From a phage, in the sequence record PZ452600.1: a stretch of DNA of 50,825 nt, one strand, 5' to 3'. Positions 20,676 through 50,825 of the stretch are shown here, one piece after another (the stretch's first letter is position 1; each line of letters begins with the position of its first letter). The notes under the pieces are model-generated. The model was not told the DNA's origin. It saw nothing but the letters and a program-made list of their open reading frames with translations, and did not search any database. Made by a program: the position numbers and the translations under genes.

Positions 20676-20700
20676 TACTCCTTAGTTGTCGTTGCCTGTA

Positions 20701-20743
20701 ACTATACACGATCCGACAAGCGGCGTTTAGCAAAAAGTGCTAC
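20701..20743 (-). promoter_or_regulatory. box cassette upstream of Cor/Llp-like lipoprotein gene
   Basis: minus-strand GTAGCACTTTTTGCTAAAC (20743-20725), N18, TATAGT (20706-20701); RBS and ATG 20675 follow. Confidence 0.5.
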
Positions 20744-21112
20744 TTGTTATTTTTTGTTTTTCGGTGTTATCGAATTTAAGACGGCGTAAATTTAGCGCAA
20801 ATTTTAGCCAACATAAGTGCAATAAACAATCAATAAAATATATATATACATATAAAATCAATAGTTTATTTATTTATGTATGTATATTTGTTTTTTCTTG
20901 TTATCTGTGTTTCTTGTGGTTTTGGTTGTTTGTGGTGATTTTTCTTTCTGAGTATCTGTATGTGCCATCATTCATGTGTATGTATATAATCCGGCGTATC
21001 TGAGAGAACAAGGGAACAAGAAAAATAACACATATTAATCATTGACTTACGTTTCAAATTTGTTTTATTGCAATCTAAGAACGTTTAGAAAACAGAAAAA
21101 ACAAAACAACTA

Positions 21113-21140
21113 TTGACTAAATAAACCAAATGGCTACAAT
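21113..21140 (+). promoter_or_regulatory. sigma70-like promoter for recombination operon
   Basis: TTGACT-N16-TACAAT, about 30 nt upstream of ATG 21171. Confidence 0.6.
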
Positions 21141-21170
21141 GCACACACAAAGCAACAAGGAGCATCAAAG

Positions 21171-27533: not shown

Positions 27534-28010
27534 TTAGCTATTTGTGCTGTTATCACCTTTGTAGAATCGTCCGCCTGGTTCGTAGTCTGAATTTTTGACT
27601 ACGCGCAACATCTCGTATTTGTCGCAACGGGTAGTAAGAGGCTTACCGTTAGAATCAAACCGCAGATCTGGACGACAAAATGATGCGCGGTATCCTTTGC
27701 ATCCATTATATTTGTAGTCGTTATGCACCTTTTGTGCTCCAGCGGCTGAAATCATACCACGCTTTCGCCATTGGTTAACGACTTGCTGAGATACGCGTAG
27801 ACGTCGAGCCATAGCAGGAACACCGCCATAATACTCGATCAGAATATCCAAGCGAGATTTCAGGCTTGCTTTTACCTCATCTCGCAGGATAAGAAATCCG
27901 GTTCGGTGTTTTCGTGGCTTTTTGTCTTTACCTCGTCGCGTTCCGTTGTTACCGTTAATAGTGCGCTTGTCGATCTCACCCGTAGACACCGCAATTCGTG
28001 CATCTTTCAT
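27534..28010 (-). CDS. helix-turn-helix DNA-binding protein
   Basis: HTH-like segment VPAMARRLRVSQQVVNQWRKRGMIS; GAGGTGA RBS; divergent from helicase. Confidence 0.55.
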   Translation of the reverse strand: MKDARIAVSTGEIDKRTINGNNGTRRGKDKKPRKHRTGFLILRDEVKASLKSRLDILIEYYGGVPAMARRLRVSQQVVNQWRKRGMISAAGAQKVHNDYKYNGCKGYRASFCRPDLRFDSNGKPLTTRCDKYEMLRVVKNSDYEPGGRFYKGDNSTNS

Positions 28011-30095: not shown

Positions 30096-30514
30096 TGGCT
30101 ATAACTGATAAAGGAGATTATCTTGAGTTTTACGAAAGAGATCCAACCGACACGAGAAAGGAAGTTAATCACCAGATAGATAGCTTTCAGTGGTTGACTT
30201 ATGCTCATCCTTATTTGCTAGCGTGGCATACGGTAAACGAGAATGAGAAGTCGAAAGTAACGGCGATGATTGATCAGCAGTCCGGCTTGGTTAAGGGGGT
30301 AAGCGATTTCATCATCCTGATTGGTTCAAACGGAAAATACCCCTTTGCAGCGATTGAGATCAAACGAGTTAATAAATCAGGCAAGGGGAAAGCATCACCA
30401 GTCAGCGATGAACAAAAGGCTTTTTTGCGTCGCGTTCGCAGCTTAGGAGGATTCGCTGCGGTCGCCTACGGATTTAATCAGTTTAAGTTAGCTATTGAAT
30501 ACATGCTTAAATAG
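30095..30514 (+). CDS. VRR-NUC-like nuclease
   Basis: TAATG overlap with helicase stop; 139 aa with ...FIILIGSNGKYPFAAIEIKR... suggestive of a PD-(D/E)XK/VRR-NUC core. Confidence 0.5.
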   Translation: MAITDKGDYLEFYERDPTDTRKEVNHQIDSFQWLTYAHPYLLAWHTVNENEKSKVTAMIDQQSGLVKGVSDFIILIGSNGKYPFAAIEIKRVNKSGKGKASPVSDEQKAFLRRVRSLGGFAAVAYGFNQFKLAIEYMLK

Positions 30515-30554
30515 CACTTTTTGTTAAAACTGGCGCGATGGATTGCGCCATAAT
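30511..30554 (+). promoter_or_regulatory. box cassette upstream of Dam-like gene
   Basis: box 30511-30530 overlapping upstream stop TAG; hairpin TGGCGC/GCGCCA; CATAAT 30549-30554. Confidence 0.5.
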
Positions 30555-35356: not shown

Positions 35357-36933
35357 CCCAGCAGTATTGGATTGACAAAAATAACACCATTAATCACACA
35401 AACATAATTTCTTTCTTCCAGCATTGGCAGCAAGTGCCCTTCTATCCTCTTCATTACGCCAGCCTGACCAACGAAAGGTTTTACCTTTCTCGCTGATTCG
35501 TACAGGGCGCGAATATTCAGGATCCCTTTGTTAGCCTTGCCGTGCCTCGTGATCAATTCAATCAATTTACCCATTTCAGCATCATCACCAGCATAACCAG
35601 AAGCATTGGCGGCGCTAATGTATGTTTTGCTCAACTCCTGAAACATGATCAGAGCCTCTTGCATTGTATCTACGTCGATCTCTTTCGACTTCTGCGGGTA
35701 TCCAGCAGGATTAAACCAGTTGCGTATAACATGCAGGACGGAAGCAAGCCTGATCACCTGTTTATCCATTTTACCCAGCGCACCGCGTAACATTGTATGA
35801 GAATACTTTCCTCCGTCTGCAAGATGCGGTTCCATATCCTGGCGAGCAATGTTGAGCACTCGCATAGCTGAACGGCTTATTTTCAGCGATATATTTGATT
35901 CGCTCATGATGTTATGCACCAATTGATAATATTGGGCTTTCAATTCAGAATCCACCGCCTCATAGGTAGAATCACCATTTTCATCAATGAATGAGCGACG
36001 GCCTAAGAATGATTCCTCGCGGACCAACAAAAAACGCTCACTAACACCGATGCCTCGCGATCCAGCGTCCATTATTCCGCTTATCGTTTCATCCTGGGCT
36101 ATAACGCTCATACATCCAAGCGCGCGAAAACTCATATTATTGTCAGCATTAGCGCGGGCAATTGATACGTGACCATTATCCCACGCCTTAAGCACTAACT
36201 CACTGTTAGTCTTCCTTTCGCTATTTGCATAGGTCAAGCCTAACAGACTGTTAATACTTGTTGCTTCATCAGATATTACGGCAAAGTTACCTTGCTTGTT
36301 GTTGATTTTCGCCAAGCCTTCTGGAGTTGTATCTGAAACAGGAAAAGTTATATCACACATTTTTTCCAGCTTTTCCTCCAGATCCTCTTTTTCCTGGTAT
36401 AGAGATTCCATATCAGCGCCGGATCTTTCGCTTTTCATCTCCTTTGCAAGACCTGCCAGCTTTGCCTGTATTTTCTTTCTTTCCTTGCGGCGTTGCTCGT
36501 TGATCTTCTCAACTTCCGCAATCATCGGAGCAATAGCCATGCTGTTGATCGCAGATTTACCAGTTGACGGCGGCTGGCTTGTAACGACGTAAAGCGCAGT
36601 CGGCTGATCGGTTCCGTGATAGTCAACCGTAAAGCGTCCAAGCATAGCGGCAGAAATGCAGCCGATAAAGTGCATGTAAGCCGATGATTCAGGGAATTGA
36701 ACGGATCGCGCAATGCTGCGTGATAACTTGCCGACAACATCAATATCATTACCAAGAGAAATAACGGGGTAGCGATCGTGACCGCTATTCACATCCTTTA
36801 CGTCGCCCCAAAAGCTGGACGACTGGCGATAGCCGTTAGCCTGAATTGATACGCGAACTGGTGAGAGGTTCTGGCTTTCAGCCATAGCGATTATTTGCTG
36901 TGGAGTTAATTTGTTCGTTTCTAATGAAAACAT
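35353..36933 (-). CDS. P-loop-containing protein (DUF3987/primase-associated-like)
   Basis: 526 aa; AAGGAG RBS; P-loop-like PPSTGKS; central charged coiled segment. Confidence 0.5.
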   Translation of the reverse strand: MFSLETNKLTPQQIIAMAESQNLSPVRVSIQANGYRQSSSFWGDVKDVNSGHDRYPVISLGNDIDVVGKLSRSIARSVQFPESSAYMHFIGCISAAMLGRFTVDYHGTDQPTALYVVTSQPPSTGKSAINSMAIAPMIAEVEKINEQRRKERKKIQAKLAGLAKEMKSERSGADMESLYQEKEDLEEKLEKMCDITFPVSDTTPEGLAKINNKQGNFAVISDEATSINSLLGLTYANSERKTNSELVLKAWDNGHVSIARANADNNMSFRALGCMSVIAQDETISGIMDAGSRGIGVSERFLLVREESFLGRRSFIDENGDSTYEAVDSELKAQYYQLVHNIMSESNISLKISRSAMRVLNIARQDMEPHLADGGKYSHTMLRGALGKMDKQVIRLASVLHVIRNWFNPAGYPQKSKEIDVDTMQEALIMFQELSKTYISAANASGYAGDDAEMGKLIELITRHGKANKGILNIRALYESARKVKPFVGQAGVMKRIEGHLLPMLEERNYVCVINGVIFVNPILLG

Positions 36934-37625: not shown

Positions 37626-37679
37626 GTTCGATGTGATTATGCCAGGTTTTTACACCTGGCTTTTAACAAAAAGTGCTAT
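37626..37679 (-). promoter_or_regulatory. box cassette
   Basis: minus-strand box (37679-37660), hairpin GCCAGGTG/CACCTGGC, CATAAT (37641-37636), CATCGAAC (37633-37626); ATG 37606. Confidence 0.5.
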
Positions 37680-40593: not shown

Positions 40594-40803
40594 TCAGATC
40601 CGCCCATACAGATCGCAAACTTCGTTGATAAAACAGCGTTGAGACTCTTTATCCTGCTTCTCAAACATCGCACGGCACTCATAGCGGTGATTATGCACGA
40701 TGACAACAACCATATTTTCAGGCGCTGACGGGTGACGCGCGGAAGCGTCGCAGATTGAAACATCCATACCCATCTCATGTGCTTTCTTGATCACATCCAA
40801 CAT
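40594..40803 (-). CDS. hypothetical protein
   Basis: ATG 40803 with AGGAG RBS (track start 40827 is TTG); 69 aa. Confidence 0.4.
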   Translation of the reverse strand: MLDVIKKAHEMGMDVSICDASARHPSAPENMVVVIVHNHRYECRAMFEKQDKESQRCFINEVCDLYGRI

Positions 40804-41057
40804 TTTTTCTTCTCCTGCAATAAGCAAACATCATTGATAAAATCAGCACGGCCCTTAATGTTGCTGATGTGGAACGTCTTTTCAGCGTACAGGCCATCAC
40901 CTTCAATCACGATCATTACGCGAGTCGGTTTATTCACGGGCGCACGAGAAAAGGGTTGGCGCACCGGAAGAAATTTAGTCATCACATCTAGGTTAGACCT
41001 GGCGGCCCTGCAAAATGCATCCGCCAGATCCAAATCATTTTCGGTAATCACCGCCAT
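40791..41057 (-). CDS. hypothetical protein
   Basis: 88 aa; overlaps upstream stop. Confidence 0.45.
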   Translation of the reverse strand: MAVITENDLDLADAFCRAARSNLDVMTKFLPVRQPFSRAPVNKPTRVMIVIEGDGLYAEKTFHISNIKGRADFINDVCLLQEKKKCWM

Positions 41058-41329
41058 TACTTCTTGATCTCCTTACTGATAAATTTCAGCACCTGGCGCA
41101 AGAAAACTTCGTTGTTGATAGTCGCTGGCAATTCTTCTTTCACTTCTTGCGGCAGATAGATATTACCGTGCCAGGTCAAGCAATCGTAGTTAATACGATA
41201 AGAGCAAAGCCACTCGCAATCGTTATCTGCTTCCCATATGCAGAGTTGCAGAACATCGCCAAAATCTTCAACAGTCAGATCCAGACCGTGACGCTTAGCG
41301 AAATTGAAAGTGGTTTTGCTGATGTTCAT
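41057..41329 (-). CDS. hypothetical protein (first gene of leftward early block)
   Basis: 90 aa; CAGGAG RBS; directly downstream of cassette 41347-41408. Confidence 0.5.
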   Translation of the reverse strand: MNISKTTFNFAKRHGLDLTVEDFGDVLQLCIWEADNDCEWLCSYRINYDCLTWHGNIYLPQEVKEELPATINNEVFLRQVLKFISKEIKK

Positions 41330-41346
41330 TTACTATCTCCTGAGCG

Positions 41347-41408
41347 GTTCGTTTCGATGTGTGTAATGTACCCGATCAGGCGGCCTGAGTTTTAACAAAA
41401 AGTGCTAT
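41347..41408 (-). promoter_or_regulatory. box cassette heading the leftward early block
   Basis: minus-strand box (41408-41389), hairpin CAGGCCGCCTGATCGGG, TACATT (41370-41365), CATCGAAACGAAC (41359-41347); ATG 41329. Confidence 0.5.
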
Positions 41409-41437
41409 TTGACGGTTAGCACCAGGATTGTGATCGA

Positions 41438-41530
41438 AATAATCAAAAGTAATCATTCGTAATCAAATCGCGTCAAAATGATGATTGCCTTTGCAAATTT
41501 GATGAGAAAAGTAATCACGTTTAATCATTG
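41438..41530. repeat. iteron-like array of five (G)TAATCA repeats
   Basis: aaTAATCAaaa, gTAATCAttc, gTAATCAaat (10-11 bp phasing), then gTAATCAcgt, tTAATCAttg 40 nt later; non-coding. Confidence 0.5.
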
Positions 41531-41963
41531 GTTGCAGGGGAGATAGTGAAACCTTCCCCTCTTGCCTCACTTTTCCTCCTGGCTGTCAGTGGTTGTTGTC
41601 TTTTGTTCACCACTGTTACCGATTTCAGGCGGCGTGTTTCCGCGCGGTTTTCCGGTGTAGCGAAAACGGAAAAAACAAAGAAAATCCTCTATAATACATT
41701 GAAAATAAAGATTATTTATTTATATATATCTATAATGTTTTCTTTTTGTTCTCACTGTTACAGTGCTTTTTGTTGGTTATGGTGTGGTTGTGTGTGGGTA
41801 TATATGGATAGTTTCGCGCGCGGCGGATTGCATATGTATATATACTTTTTCCGGCGGATTGCGTTAACAGCGTGAACAGAAAAATAACAGCCGCGAAATC
41901 AATAACTTGCGCGTGATTTTGTAGTTTTTCGATATTGGTAACGTTTTGAATACAACAAAAACA

Positions 41964-41991
41964 TTGACACGCACCAAATAGCTTTTATAAT
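41964..41991 (+). promoter_or_regulatory. near-consensus sigma70 promoter for rightward early block
   Basis: TTGACA-N16-TATAAT; GGAGG RBS and ATG 42023 follow. Confidence 0.7.
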
Positions 41992-42022
41992 GCGCCAACA
42001 GTCAACAACCGGAGGAAAGGAA

Positions 42023-42487
42023 ATGGAACAGAAAACCACTAAGGACTATTGCGATTGGCTTCGCGAGCTTGGTCGCCGCCTGGCTAGTGGAGATATTGAA
42101 GAGTATAAAATGTCACTAATTGACCTGGCCGGAATGTTAAGCGGTGACGACTGCTACAAGATCACGCGCAGTTCATCCTACAGCCGGACCATTATCAACC
42201 GCATTCCAGAAGTAAGGGCCGCAGGTCGGGTAAGCATCAAGGTAGAGGAAGCGGAAGATGATAAATTTTACGTTTTCCGCATGGTCCGCGAATCGAAAAG
42301 GAAAATCATCACACCCGAAGAATTGCCAGCCATCAAGGCAAGGGCGATCAAAAAGTTTGCCGATCGCTTGCTGGCAGCAATCCCGAATATCGTTGACCTG
42401 GAAGGGGATAAACTGGCTGGAGCTTGTGAGGGCGTAAGCCGCTACCAGGATATGATCCGCGAAATCATCAAAGAGGAAGAGCAATGA
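42023..42487 (+). CDS. hypothetical protein (first gene after near-consensus promoter)
   Basis: GGAGGAAAGG RBS before ATG 42023; the track start 41990 falls inside the -10 hexamer. Confidence 0.55.
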   Translation: MEQKTTKDYCDWLRELGRRLASGDIEEYKMSLIDLAGMLSGDDCYKITRSSSYSRTIINRIPEVRAAGRVSIKVEEAEDDKFYVFRMVRESKRKIITPEELPAIKARAIKKFADRLLAAIPNIVDLEGDKLAGACEGVSRYQDMIREIIKEEEQ

Positions 42488-42756
42488 AAAAGGCATTAAT
42501 CAGCGTTTTGGCGGCAATGGCATTCCTGACCGGATGCAAAGAAGATGGCGCGCATGTTGGCAATGTGCAGATGGCTAACCCTGGCGATGACTACAGCGTA
42601 AGGGAGCTATTCACCGCTGACGGTTGCACCGTTTACCGATTCTATGACGATCGCACTGTTTACTTCACCAACTGCAAGGGAACGACTAGCTGGGAAGTGT
42701 CGAAAAGCAACGGCAAAGGCACAACAACAGAATATATGACCGTCGAGACAAAATAG
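42484..42756 (+). CDS. early lipoprotein
   Basis: ATGA overlap; signal peptide with lipobox LTGC (MKKALISVLAAMAFLTGCKED). Confidence 0.6.
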   Translation: MKKALISVLAAMAFLTGCKEDGAHVGNVQMANPGDDYSVRELFTADGCTVYRFYDDRTVYFTNCKGTTSWEVSKSNGKGTTTEYMTVETK

Positions 42757-42812
42757 CACTTTTTGTTAAAACGCCAGGTGCAAAGCCTGGCATAATAGCC
42801 TCATCGAAACGA
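42753..42812 (+). promoter_or_regulatory. box cassette
   Basis: box 42753-42772 contains upstream stop TAG; hairpin GCCAGG/CCTGGC; CATAAT 42791-42796; CATCGAAACGA 42802-42812. Confidence 0.5.
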
Positions 42813-43313: not shown

Positions 43314-44117
43314 ATGTTAAAACTTGCTGACATTAAATTCCCGATCACCTTCGAATCTCGCGGCATTGGTCATTACATTTTTACTGATGAAAAAACATGC
43401 CATAAAGTTGATTTGCATAGCTACAAGCGTGCGCCATCAGACATGGAGATTGAACACTTCATTGATGCACATAACAAGCACTACAACGCACTTAAAGACT
43501 ATGGCTATGCAATGCCAGGATATACCAGCTTCCACTACAAGCCATATAAAGGCCAGGTGTTGCCAGTGCGCTCGCCGGAACGCGCAGAGATTCCGATGGT
43601 CAATATGAAAACATGCGACTACAAAAAGCTGTGGTGCTTAAGTGTGGACAATATCAAGTATCCGATCACGTTCCGCACGACTGGTAAGTCAACGATTCGC
43701 TACACATCGCGCGAAAATGGCGTTTATAGCGATGGTACGAAATCAGAGTTGAAAGTTGATTTCTTTGTCAACGGTCACAACAAATTCAATCCGCACAACG
43801 AAGAGGATAAAGTGTACTACGTGGAAGACATTACAAAACACTTGTTTGGAGAAACTCCATTCGGCGGCGGTAAGACGTCAATTCAAAAAATCGTAACGCA
43901 GGGCGCGATTGAAGATATGCCAGTTGCAGCCACGCTAAAAGGAGTCCGGCTTGATGACGGCACCTGGTATGAATTAACGGCTACACCAAAGACGATCGAA
44001 ATTCATGATGATGTTGTTATCCTTCTGCTTCACTACGGCGGCTATAAAAACCGGACGATTACAGGTGAGATCAGCATCAAGCGCGGAACGATGGTTAAGT
44101 GGAAGGTCAAAGTGTAA
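43314..44117 (+). CDS. hypothetical protein with internal duplication
   Basis: 267 aa; repeated segment ADIKFPITFESRGIGHYIFTDE / DNIKYPITFRTTGKSTIRYTSRE; downstream of cassette 43216-43259. Confidence 0.55.
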   Translation: MLKLADIKFPITFESRGIGHYIFTDEKTCHKVDLHSYKRAPSDMEIEHFIDAHNKHYNALKDYGYAMPGYTSFHYKPYKGQVLPVRSPERAEIPMVNMKTCDYKKLWCLSVDNIKYPITFRTTGKSTIRYTSRENGVYSDGTKSELKVDFFVNGHNKFNPHNEEDKVYYVEDITKHLFGETPFGGGKTSIQKIVTQGAIEDMPVAATLKGVRLDDGTWYELTATPKTIEIHDDVVILLLHYGGYKNRTITGEISIKRGTMVKWKVKV

Positions 44118-50298: not shown

Positions 50299-50825
50299 AT
50301 GGCTAAAAATGTTGAGCCTGCTGTAAAGGCATTAAATTTCAAAGAGTTATACAATAAAACTTATGGCGATATTGTCACGCTAAACAACCGCCACAAGTAC
50401 ACGCCGGAACAGGTTTTTGATATGGCGATCCGCTATTTCACTTGGGCCGAAGAGAATCACATCCAGGCGGCTGAAACTGCTTCCTTTCAGGGTGACGTGT
50501 ACGAGAGCAGAGTTTACAAGCCTCGCGTTTTCACGGTTAACGGATTCAGCTTGTATCTCGGCGTGACTGAGGCTGCCGTAAGCAAATGGCGTAAAGAGCC
50601 TGGATTCTGCGATGTGATGGAGTTTGTTGATAAAGTAATTTACGAGCAAAAATTCCAGCTTGCGGCAAATAACATGATTAACGCTGGATTTATCGGTAAA
50701 GAGATCGGAGTAGAGAAGCCAGCAACAGTGAGCGTTGAAGCGAGCGCGGCAGCTAATGCAAGCATTGACGCAGTAACTGCCGATGAGGTGAAAGAGGCTG
50801 TGATTGATATTCTGGAGCAACTTTA
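50299..50825 (+). CDS. terS: terminase small subunit (runs off window end; completed by position 1 if circular)
   Basis: AAGGAGG RBS; 175 codons plus TA at window end; motif FTVNGFSLYLGVTEAAVSKW typical of small terminase DNA-binding region; joins TerL at position 1 through a TAATG overlap. Confidence 0.75.
   Translation, partial: MAKNVEPAVKALNFKELYNKTYGDIVTLNNRHKYTPEQVFDMAIRYFTWAEENHIQAAETASFQGDVYESRVYKPRVFTVNGFSLYLGVTEAAVSKWRKEPGFCDVMEFVDKVIYEQKFQLAANNMINAGFIGKEIGVEKPATVSVEASAAANASIDAVTADEVKEAVIDILEQL

What the first reader, a model, noticed from the sequence alone, without database searches (positions are those of the whole stretch)
41438..41530. Iteron-like TAATCA repeat array next to the rightward promoter region
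Five (G)TAATCA(W) repeats, three phased at 10-11 bp and two more 40 nt downstream, followed by hairpin AGGGGA/TCCCCT (41535-41560). Helically phased direct repeats in non-coding DNA are typical of initiator or regulator binding arrays, so this is a candidate replication origin or operator.
Basis: seen in the sequence. Interest (0 to 1): 0.5.

Follow-up and report, generated by a model that had tools for sequence, protein, structure and literature searches.

The report
Phased repeats at phage packaging-start site
The five TAATCA repeats are real and lie in the one non-coding stretch of this T1-like phage where relatives' packaged genomes begin, so they are more likely the docking site for the DNA-packaging enzyme than a replication origin or operator.

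Summary
The window is a complete T1-like coliphage genome (Drexlerviridae, Warwickvirus). Five exact TAATCA copies, all on one strand, sit at 41440, 41450, 41460, 41512 and 41522. That is more than chance gives.

They lie in the left part of the 690-bp divergent intergenic region, 30-120 nt upstream of the leftward promoter. The consensus rightward promoter is 440 bp away, so the array is not beside it. The motif is really TGATTR/TTTGATTR, and this is its densest cluster in the genome.

Other Drexlerviridae genera carry TGATTR-type arrays at the same place, some with the same 10-bp period. Reported genome ends in relatives (T1, TLS-like GS156, MSK by PhageTerm, and the record ends of XY3, PHB17 and one more isolate) project onto about 41480-41556. 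That zone covers the right half of the array and the adjacent conserved G-rich box.

The array cassette occurs in exactly the 61 database phages that carry this small-terminase allele. A second cassette/allele pair repeats the pattern, 5 of 5.

Best reading (about 0.55): it is the recognition part of the pac site, bound by the P22-gp3-type small terminase, with cutting at the G-box. Origin and operator readings are weaker. No binding or end-mapping data exist for this phage.

The parts
41437..41469 (-). Left cluster: three TAATCA units at 41440, 41450 and 41460 with exact 10-bp period. Read on the - strand the motif is TTTGATTA / TGATTAC.
41470..41478 (-). Degenerate fourth phased unit (CGTCAAAA), 11 bp after the third unit.
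   Evidence: a related locus, L018, has a 10-bp-phased GTCA-type array at the same place
41509..41531 (-). Right cluster: two TAATCA units at 41512 and 41522, 10 bp apart and 52 bp after the third unit.
   Evidence: repeat family D2
41426..41430 (+). Opposite-orientation core copy, GATTG (GGATTGTG).
41476..41505 (+). Centre between the clusters. It holds + strand copies TGATTG (41482) and TTTGATGA (41498), and a one-mismatch IHF-like site on the - strand (41474-41486).
41536..41560 (.). Its sequence core is conserved across genera. It is the inferred zone of the first packaging cut.
   Evidence: Ends of records XY3 (projects to 41545/41546), PHB17 (about 41544) and the L011 isolate (about 41535) fall here, and the MSK PhageTerm peak projects to about 41556. 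The fold is not significant.
41358..41408 (-). Leftward promoter P_L: the ATAGCACTTTTTGTTAAAA element at 41390-41408 and a -10 TACATT at 41365-41370. It is not part of the array but marks its left border.
50299..50825 (+). Small terminase gene (175 aa). Its stop codon uses window base 1. It is the proposed binding partner of the array.
   Evidence: Pfam GP3_package, E 3.8e-11; P22 gp3 structure 3P9A, E 1.7e-15; coordinates; allele co-occurs with the array 61 of 61

Best explanation
The TAATCA array is the recognition part of the phage's pac site, the place where headful DNA packaging starts.

The repeats are half-sites of a TGATTR/TTTGATTR motif. They are set one per helical turn on intrinsically curved DNA. 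The ring-shaped small terminase (a P22-gp3 homologue encoded 8.8 kb to the right) is proposed to bind several of them at once and wrap this stretch of a concatemer. The large terminase then makes the first cut a few tens of bases to the right, in or near the conserved G-rich box (about 41535-41556), and packages rightwards.

Shown here: the array is real, unique in the genome and conserved. Its position matches where relatives' genomes end. The cassette and the terminase allele occur together.

Inferred only: that the small terminase is the binding protein, where exactly the cut falls in this phage, and the wrapping geometry.
For: 1. Place. The T1 reference record is opened, with a 2.8-kb terminal repeat, inside the homologous intergenic region. 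Published work puts the T1-like pac site in this untranslated region (PMC7718038). TLS pac was mapped by restriction analysis and assigned to 'AGATTT' (PMC11447400). In the TLS-like phage GS156 that string lies inside a 10-bp tandem, ATTTGATTGG ATTTGATTAG ATTTGAGTAG, just before record base 1. GS156 termini were checked with PhageTerm (PMC12896672). The MSK PhageTerm peak at 36,862 falls 149 nt after the leftward promoter element, just past its GATTG/GCAAT array. Three further records end at the G-box: XY3, PHB17 and the L011 isolate.

2. Motif. The window's - strand unit GATTTGATTAC matches the GS156 + strand unit GATTTGATTAG at 10 of 11 bases. Locus L020 has the same 10-bp-phased units. Positions 41411-41540 are the genome's top window for TGATTR, with 6 copies against 0.25 expected.

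3. Uniqueness. The AT-rich block further right is duplicated at 20.8 kb, but the array and G-box are not.

4. Co-occurrence. The array cassette is found in 61 database records, all at 96% identity or more, and in none at lower identity. The small-terminase allele is at 95% or more in 61 records, and the 60 accessions listed for each agree apart from one unlisted record per list. A second cassette (BEBK14 type) and its terminase allele share the same 5 records. The genes next to the array are shared much more widely, and genes between the array and the terminase gene are mosaic within the 61-record set.

5. The other allele that co-occurs, the Cro-like protein HTH158, keeps an almost unchanged recognition helix between phages with unrelated arrays: VSQQVVNQWRKRG against VSQQTVNMWRKRG. 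The HTH-like segment of the small terminase is its most diverged part: 8 of 20 identical, against 66% overall.

6. A-tract phasing across the array ranks in the top 0.1% of genome windows. Curved DNA of this kind is typical of terminase-binding sites (general knowledge of SPP1 pacR).
Against: There are no end-mapping or binding data for this phage. The ends used come from relatives, and for XY3, PHB17 and L011 nothing documents how the record ends were chosen. XY3 is annotated as circular.

The reported ends scatter over about 75 nt when projected onto the window, and T1's base 1 falls between the two clusters rather than to their right.

The co-occurrence is at clade level. HTH158 shows the same 61 of 61 and 5 of 5 pattern, so it does not single out the small terminase.

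The five exact units here point the opposite way from those of TLS-like phages, although packaging direction is presumably the same.

Arrays of different genera share only the short core. Known pac sites of the P22-gp3 family (P22, Sf6) are single sites inside the terminase gene, not repeat arrays 9 kb upstream.
Confidence: 0.55

Rival explanations
1. The array is an upstream regulatory site for early transcription. A phage DNA-binding protein, for example the Cro-like HTH158, binds the phased repeats and bends the DNA. This activates or shuts off the leftward promoter P_L and possibly a weak rightward promoter that overlaps the first unit.
For: The array lies 30-120 nt upstream of the P_L element. 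A weak sigma-70-like match, TTAGCA-16-AATAAT at 41416-41443, overlaps the first unit. The HTH158 allele co-occurs with the cassette, 61 of 61 and 5 of 5. Phased A-tracts are common upstream of promoters.
Against: About 19 other promoters of the same ATAGCAC class in this genome have no such array. The array does not overlap -35/-10 elements of any strong promoter. The weak promoter match is no more than shuffled sequence gives: 2 found against 2.6 expected. The neighbouring genes L1, L2 and R1 do not co-vary with array type. The HTH158 recognition helix is nearly unchanged between phages with unrelated arrays. This reading does not explain why genome ends of relatives fall here.
Confidence: 0.18
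2. The array is a replication origin. The repeats act as iterons for a phage initiator, perhaps HTH158 working with the adjacent primase and helicase, and unwinding occurs in the AT-rich block to the right.
For: There are direct repeats in phase in a large non-coding region. GC skew changes sign here. An AT-rich block lies at 41700-41850. No origin has been identified for any T1-like phage. HTH158 sits beside the primase gene, and its allele tracks the cassette.
Against: There are no DnaA boxes. The units have a 6-8 bp core on a 10-bp period, not the 17-22 bp typical of iterons. No initiator gene is adjacent. The AT-rich block is 160 nt away and is duplicated at 20.8 kb without an array. The skew change coincides with divergent transcription, so it is not informative. 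The HTH158 helix is conserved across unrelated arrays.
Confidence: 0.12
3. The array is curved DNA or a host nucleoid-protein site (IHF, Fis or H-NS) with no phage-specific reader. It would be an architectural element of the intergenic region.
For: A-tract phasing is strong. There is a one-mismatch IHF-like site at 41474-41486, and exact IHF consensus sites at 41897 and 20856.
Against: The conserved letters are the TAATCA/TGATTR cores rather than the A-tracts alone. The cassette is all-or-none and lineage-specific, which is not expected for a host-protein site. The IHF-like match is within chance expectation.
Confidence: 0.1
4. The cluster is a chance repeat with no function.
For: The units are short, and AT-rich intergenic DNA is repeat-prone.
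Against: Zero or one of 250 shuffles match the cluster. The cassette is kept at 96% identity or more in 61 phages although its flanks are mosaic. The motif and its phasing recur in other genera.
Confidence: 0.03

Closest known systems
Phage P1 pac site (hexamers TGATCA/G, four on one side and three on the other side of the cut; from general knowledge)
   Same: Two clusters of a short hexamer, 3(+1) and 2 copies here, about 50 bp apart, next to the first packaging cut. The hexamer differs from P1's by one base (TGATTA/G against TGATCA/G). A possible IHF-like site lies between the clusters.
   Different: The units contain no GATC, so Dam methylation control as in P1 is not possible. The terminase proteins are unrelated. 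The cut projected from most relatives lies to the right of both clusters, not between them; only T1's base 1 projects between them.
Phage SPP1 pac (pacL boxes, pacC cut site, bent pacR; from general knowledge)
   Same: Repeated small-terminase boxes in helical phase on intrinsically curved DNA, with the cut in an adjacent separate segment.
   Different: The SPP1 site lies beside or within the terminase gene and has binding sites on both sides of the cut. No right-hand site has been identified here. The small-terminase family is different.
Phage P22 pac (22-bp GAAGATTTATCTGAAGTCGTTA inside gene 3; sequence as quoted in PMC11447400)
   Same: The small terminase here is a homologue of P22 gp3. 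The repeat unit GATTTGATTA shares a GATTT core with the P22 site, which is the resemblance the TLS authors used.
   Different: The P22 site is a single asymmetric site within the terminase gene. Here there is a multi-copy array 8.8 kb upstream in non-coding DNA.
Published pac assignments in T1-like phages (T1 record base 1; TLS 'AGATTT'; the 'ATATA repeats' suggestion reported in PMC8421802)
   Same: The same intergenic region. The TLS 'AGATTT' lies inside the homologous 10-bp tandem.
   Different: None of the papers found describes a phased TGATTR array. The TLS paper states that no iteron-like repeats exist in the genome. The ATATA block is duplicated at 20.8 kb, which makes it a poor candidate for a unique pac site.
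Iteron origins (lambda ori: four 18-bp iterons inside gene O; plasmid iterons)
   Same: Direct repeats in the same orientation in helical register.
   Different: The units are much shorter. No adjacent initiator gene, no DnaA boxes and no adjoining unwinding element were found (for the lambda annotation).

Membership tests
pac site of a headful-packaging phage | It lies where the first packaging cut is made, so virion DNA ends map there. | tested here: inconclusive
   There are no data for this phage. In relatives the ends fall in or next to the homologous array: T1 base 1, TLS/GS156 base 1, the MSK PhageTerm peak, and the record ends of XY3, PHB17 and L011. The method is documented only for MSK, TLS and GS156.
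pac site of a headful-packaging phage | It is a single site per genome. | tested here: met
   The array and G-box occur once. The region is the top TGATTR window of the genome, and no second TAATCA cluster exists.
pac site of a headful-packaging phage | It is specifically bound by the cognate small terminase. | not testable with these tools
   Only indirect evidence is available. Cassette and terminase allele co-occur 61 of 61 and 5 of 5. The HTH-like segment of the terminase is its most diverged part. HTH158 co-occurs equally.
pac site of a headful-packaging phage | The phage packages by the headful mechanism and has a pac-type terminase. | tested here: met
   The small terminase is a P22 gp3 homologue. 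T1-like phages are documented headful/pac packagers.
iteron-type replication origin | Three or more direct repeats of about 17-22 bp that bind an initiator. | tested here: not met
   The units have a 6-8 bp core on a 10-bp period. Tandem Repeats Finder gives only a weak 10-bp array.
iteron-type replication origin | An adjacent AT-rich unwinding element and host-factor boxes (DnaA, IHF). | tested here: not met
   There are no DnaA boxes with one mismatch or fewer in the array. The AT-rich block starts about 160 nt away and is duplicated elsewhere.
iteron-type replication origin | The initiator gene is adjacent to or contains the repeats. | tested here: not met
   The flanking genes are small proteins of unknown function (PHROGs and Pfam: no DNA-binding domain). 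The only HTH protein found is 13 kb away.
iteron-type replication origin | Replication starts there. | not testable with these tools
   This needs marker-frequency or replication-intermediate mapping.
operator array of a transcription regulator | The sites overlap or closely flank the -35/-10 of the controlled promoter. | tested here: not met
   The array is -80 to -170 from the P_L start and 440 bp from the consensus rightward promoter. Only a weak 9-of-12 promoter-like match overlaps unit 1.
operator array of a transcription regulator | A cognate regulator is encoded nearby and co-varies with the sites. | tested here: not met
   R1 is 29% identical in atuna, which has the same array. L1 and L2 are 92-96% identical in BEBK14, which has an unrelated array.

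The most novel reading that the evidence does not exclude
T1-like terminases may recognise any dense, helically phased cluster of TGATTR half-sites, in either orientation, while the adjacent G-box sets the position and direction of the cut. That would explain two things. First, the units are inverted here relative to TLS-like phages with no change in genome organisation. Second, T1 can start packaging at a specific foreign site: the single densest TGATTR cluster of lambda (43411-43600, in ninI) lies between genes P and Q, where, from memory only, Drexler mapped the T1 'esp-lambda' packaging start.
Probability: 0.15. Interest if true: 0.55.

Novelty: new member of a known kind. Interest (0 to 1): 0.42.

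Why it matters
T1-like phages are common laboratory contaminants, candidates for phage therapy and generalised transducers. Even so, their pac site has been placed only to a region, and the published sequence assignments disagree (T1 base 1, 'AGATTT' in TLS, 'ATATA repeats').

A defined recognition array plus a cut box would help in several ways. Genomes of this family could be opened consistently. Packageable plasmids or synthetic genomes could be designed. It would become possible to predict which host or foreign DNA is picked up for transduction. It would also give a test case for how a P22-gp3-type terminase ring reads multi-copy sites.

The result is useful rather than surprising, because repeat arrays at packaging sites are a known theme.

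Tried and rejected
- Rfam scan of 41200-42150: only two sub-threshold snoRNA matches, so no known RNA.
- Hairpin as a terminator: the fold is no better than shuffled sequence and no T-run follows.
- Viral-contig scan with the conserved P_L promoter string: only 7 loci.
- Host-factor sites: no DnaA boxes, and IHF-like matches within chance. From memory, I also considered known E. coli regulator consensus sites (CpxR GTAAA-N5-GTAAA, Fur, PhoP, ArcA, OmpR). I set them aside because the conserved core TAATCA/TGATTR, the spacing, or both do not fit. They were not tested formally.
- Separating the small terminase from HTH158 by co-occurrence: this failed, because both alleles track the cassette perfectly in two lineages. 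Only the comparison of recognition helices leans towards the terminase.
- N-terminal small-terminase identity against array type across loci: inconclusive, because phages with the palindromic 'type B' array carry diverse terminases.
- Literature: the T1 (Roberts 2004) and Rtp (Wietzorrek 2006) genome papers and Drexler's lambda packaging-site paper are not held. Several T1-like papers report that PhageTerm found no clear termini.
- GC skew: it follows the direction of transcription and is not informative about an origin.

Full report
**What the window is**

The 50,825-bp window is a complete, circularly permuted genome of a T1-like coliphage (Drexlerviridae, Tempevirinae, Warwickvirus). It is 97-99% identical over the region of interest to phages such as Phunderstruck, JLBYU16, SECphi27, tonn and FritzSarasin. 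Base 1 is the start codon of the large terminase. The small terminase gene runs 50299-50825, and its stop codon uses base 1.

The finding lies in the roughly 690-bp divergent intergenic region 41330-42022. Small early genes run leftward from 41329 and rightward from 42023.

**Check of the observation**

TAATCA occurs at 41440, 41450, 41460, 41512 and 41522, always on the + strand. Start-to-start spacings are 10, 10, 52 and 10, which suits one helical face.

It is the most clustered hexamer of the genome. Five same-strand copies of any hexamer within 90 bp were reached in 1 of 250 dinucleotide-preserving shuffles. Four or more phased copies were reached in none. Tandem Repeats Finder sees a weak 10-bp array.

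The motif is therefore better written TGATTR or TTTGATTR. Positions 41411-41540 hold 6 TGATTR copies against 0.25 expected, the highest density in the genome.

A-tracts across the array are in helical phase at a level reached by only 2-5 of 5,072 genome windows. The DNA is therefore probably curved.

The inverted repeat AGGGGA/TCCCCT is at 41536-41560. It folds no better than shuffled sequence and has no T-run, so it is not a terminator.

**Surroundings**

Immediately left of the array, at 41390-41408 on the - strand, is one of about 20 copies of ATAGCACTTTTTGTTAAAA. This is the '21-nt repeat' described for TLS and T1 (PMC11447400). In every copy a -10-like hexamer follows after 18-19 nt, so the element marks a promoter class. 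The array thus lies 80-170 nt upstream of the leftward promoter's start.

The only strong rightward promoter (TTGACA-16-TATAAT) is at 41964-41991, 440 bp away. The title phrase 'next to the rightward promoter' is therefore wrong.

The right half of the intergenic region holds an AT-rich block beginning TATAATACATTG. This block is the part conserved across the whole family, and it is duplicated in a second divergent intergenic region at 20.7-21.2 kb. The array and the G-rich box are not duplicated. Rfam finds nothing. There are no DnaA boxes. IHF-like matches are within chance, apart from exact consensus sites at 41897 and 20856, both outside the array.

**Relatives**

Within the genus the array is kept almost unchanged. 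In other genera the same slot, between the leftward promoter element and a G-rich box, holds different arrays built on the same core:

- T1 has repeated GTGATTGTTGC and GCAATGATTG.
- MSK, an Rtp-like phage, has GATTGTTGC and GCAAT repeats.
- Locus L020 and the TLS-like phage GS156 have 10-bp tandems. In GS156 these read ATTTGATTGG ATTTGATTAG ATTTGAGTAG.
- The GS156 unit matches the window's - strand unit GATTTGATTAC at 10 of 11 bases, but in the opposite orientation.
- Hanrivervirus-type phages, T1, L018 and BEBK14 also carry a TATTCC/GGAATA palindrome there.

The G-box core, GGGGA..TAG(T/A)GAAAC, recurs across these genera.

**Link to genome ends**

- The T1 reference record is opened inside this region and annotates a 2.8-kb terminal repeat from base 1.
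- One paper states that the pac site of T1-like phages lies in this untranslated region (PMC7718038).
- The TLS pac was mapped by restriction analysis and then assigned to 'AGATTT' by resemblance to P22 (PMC11447400). In GS156 that string sits inside the 10-bp tandem, 15-25 nt before record base 1. GS156 termini were checked with PhageTerm (PMC12896672).
- For MSK, PhageTerm gave a start at 36,862 (PMC8421802). That is 149 nt after the promoter element and just past the array.
- Record XY3, which carries the same cassette as the window, ends at a position that projects to window 41545, and its base 1 is the GTGAAACC of the G-box.
- PHB17 ends at ...TGATTGTGAGGGGAATC. Another isolate (L011) ends just before GGAGGGG.

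Projected onto the window, these ends span about 41480-41556, that is the right half of the array and the G-box. How XY3, PHB17 and L011 chose their ends is not documented, so this evidence is suggestive rather than proof.

**Co-occurrence**

A sensitive search with the array (41409-41565) finds 61 records, all at 96% identity or more, and none at lower identity. The small-terminase gene is at 95% or more in 61 records, then drops to 4 records at 80-90% and 682 at 60-80%. The two accession lists agree apart from the one unlisted record in each.

Within this 61-record set the DNA between the array and the terminase gene is mosaic. Compared with atuna, R1 is 29% identical, R2 is 45% and R5 is absent, while the small terminase is 100% identical.

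By contrast the genes directly left of the array are shared far more widely: 60 records at 95-99% and 27 more at 90-95%. One of these is BEBK14, whose array shows no detectable similarity to the window's. There is therefore a recombination boundary between the promoter and the array, and the array travels with the core genome rather than with its neighbours.

A replicate confirms the pattern. The BEBK14 cassette and the BEBK14 terminase allele occur in the same five records.

The caveat is that the Cro-like protein HTH158, beside the primase gene, shows the same 61 of 61 and 5 of 5 pattern. Its recognition helix, however, is almost unchanged between the two lineages. The HTH-like segment of the small terminase (LGVTEAAVSKWRKEPG against SGISDSNIQRLRKLPG) is the most diverged part of that protein. 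This leans towards the terminase but does not settle the matter.

**Mechanism proposed**

The small terminase is a homologue of P22 gp3 (Pfam GP3_package; PDB 3P9A, a nine-chain entry). A ring of subunits with DNA-binding elements about one helical turn apart fits sites spaced 10 bp apart on curved DNA.

I propose that the ring binds the phased TGATTR units on a concatemer. The large terminase then cuts in or near the G-box, and packaging proceeds rightwards through the small early genes towards the terminase genes, as in the T1 record. The binding partner, the cut position in this phage and the geometry are all inferred.

**Rivals**

- An upstream regulatory site for the leftward promoter is possible (0.18). 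No other promoter of that class has such an array, and the neighbouring genes do not co-vary with it.
- An origin (0.12) lacks iteron-length units, an adjacent initiator gene, DnaA boxes and a private AT-rich element.
- A purely architectural or host-protein site (0.10) does not explain the all-or-none, lineage-specific cassettes.
- Chance is about 0.03.

These readings are not mutually exclusive with packaging.

**Comparison with known systems and novelty**

The closest analogue in layout is the P1 pac site, with clusters of TGATCA/G hexamers around the cut. The motif here differs by one base and lacks the Dam site. SPP1 pac shares the theme of phased boxes on bent DNA beside a separate cut site. 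P22 shares the terminase family but has a single site inside its own gene.

For T1-like phages the region was known, but the array is not described in the papers I could read. The TLS paper states that no iteron-like repeats exist in the genome.

I file this as a new member of a known kind, of moderate interest (0.42).

One lead I could not verify concerns lambda. Its densest TGATTR cluster (43411-43600, four sites against 0.23 expected) lies between P and Q. From memory, T1 was reported to start packaging of lambda DNA there, but the paper is not held.

Noticed in passing
window-wide, e.g. 30511-30529 (+), 37661-37679 (-), 42753-42771 (+); 22 matches in all: The element ATAGCACTTTTTGTTAAAA is always followed after 18-19 nt by a -10-like hexamer (CATAAT, TATAAT or TACATT), and the spacer is often a GC-rich hairpin. 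No -35 sits at normal spacing, so this looks like a non-canonical promoter class that may need a phage factor. In the opposite direction the hairpin plus T-run would act as a terminator. It is known as the TLS/T1 '21-nt repeat' but is not explained.
   Followed up: partly
window 20690-21170: A second divergent intergenic region has the same layout: an ATAGCAC element at 20725-20743 (-), an AT-rich block at 20841-20937 that is 76% identical to 41690-41784, and a rightward promoter before the exonuclease gene. It has no TAATCA array or G-box. The duplicated AT-rich block is the part of the region most conserved across the family. Its function is unknown.
   Followed up: partly
window 41821-41831 and 41852-41862: An exact 11-bp direct repeat, CGGCGGATTGC, appears twice, 31 bp apart, between the AT-rich block and the rightward promoter.
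   Followed up: no
window 41964-41991: A perfect sigma-70 consensus promoter (TTGACA, 16-bp spacer, TATAAT) sits 32 bp upstream of the first rightward gene. An exact IHF consensus lies at 41897.
   Followed up: no
window 27534-28010 (-): A 158-aa protein with a Cro/YdaS-like helix-turn-helix (weak Pfam and PDB matches) is encoded beside the primase gene. Its recognition helix is nearly invariant between lineages. It is a candidate reader of the conserved ATAGCAC promoter element.
   Followed up: partly
locus L184 5411-5600 (phage lambda 43411-43600, gene ninI): The densest TGATTR cluster in lambda 1-45500 is here: four sites in 200 bp against 0.23 expected. It includes GGAATTAATCACATTCC and AAATGATGATTGATGG. 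From memory, a T1 packaging-initiation site in lambda was mapped between P and Q. I could not verify this.
   Followed up: partly
window 42023-42487 and 40791-41329: The early genes flanking the intergenic region are highly mosaic. R1 (DUF7174) is only 29% identical in atuna, which otherwise shares 94-97% identity. Fragments of the left-hand genes also match large myophage genomes of 145-168 kb.
   Followed up: no
database records MG0656xx ('Campylobacter phage' C4, A112a, A131 and others): These records match this T1-like coliphage region and its terminase gene. They look like T1-like coliphage sequences filed under a Campylobacter host.
   Followed up: no
locus L006 1-540 and L007 2676-2837 (phage T1): T1 has two leftward ATAGCAC elements in its intergenic region, each followed by its own GATT-rich array. 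It also has a triple CGATTAACA repeat and a double AATTACGCC repeat nearer the rightward gene.
   Followed up: no
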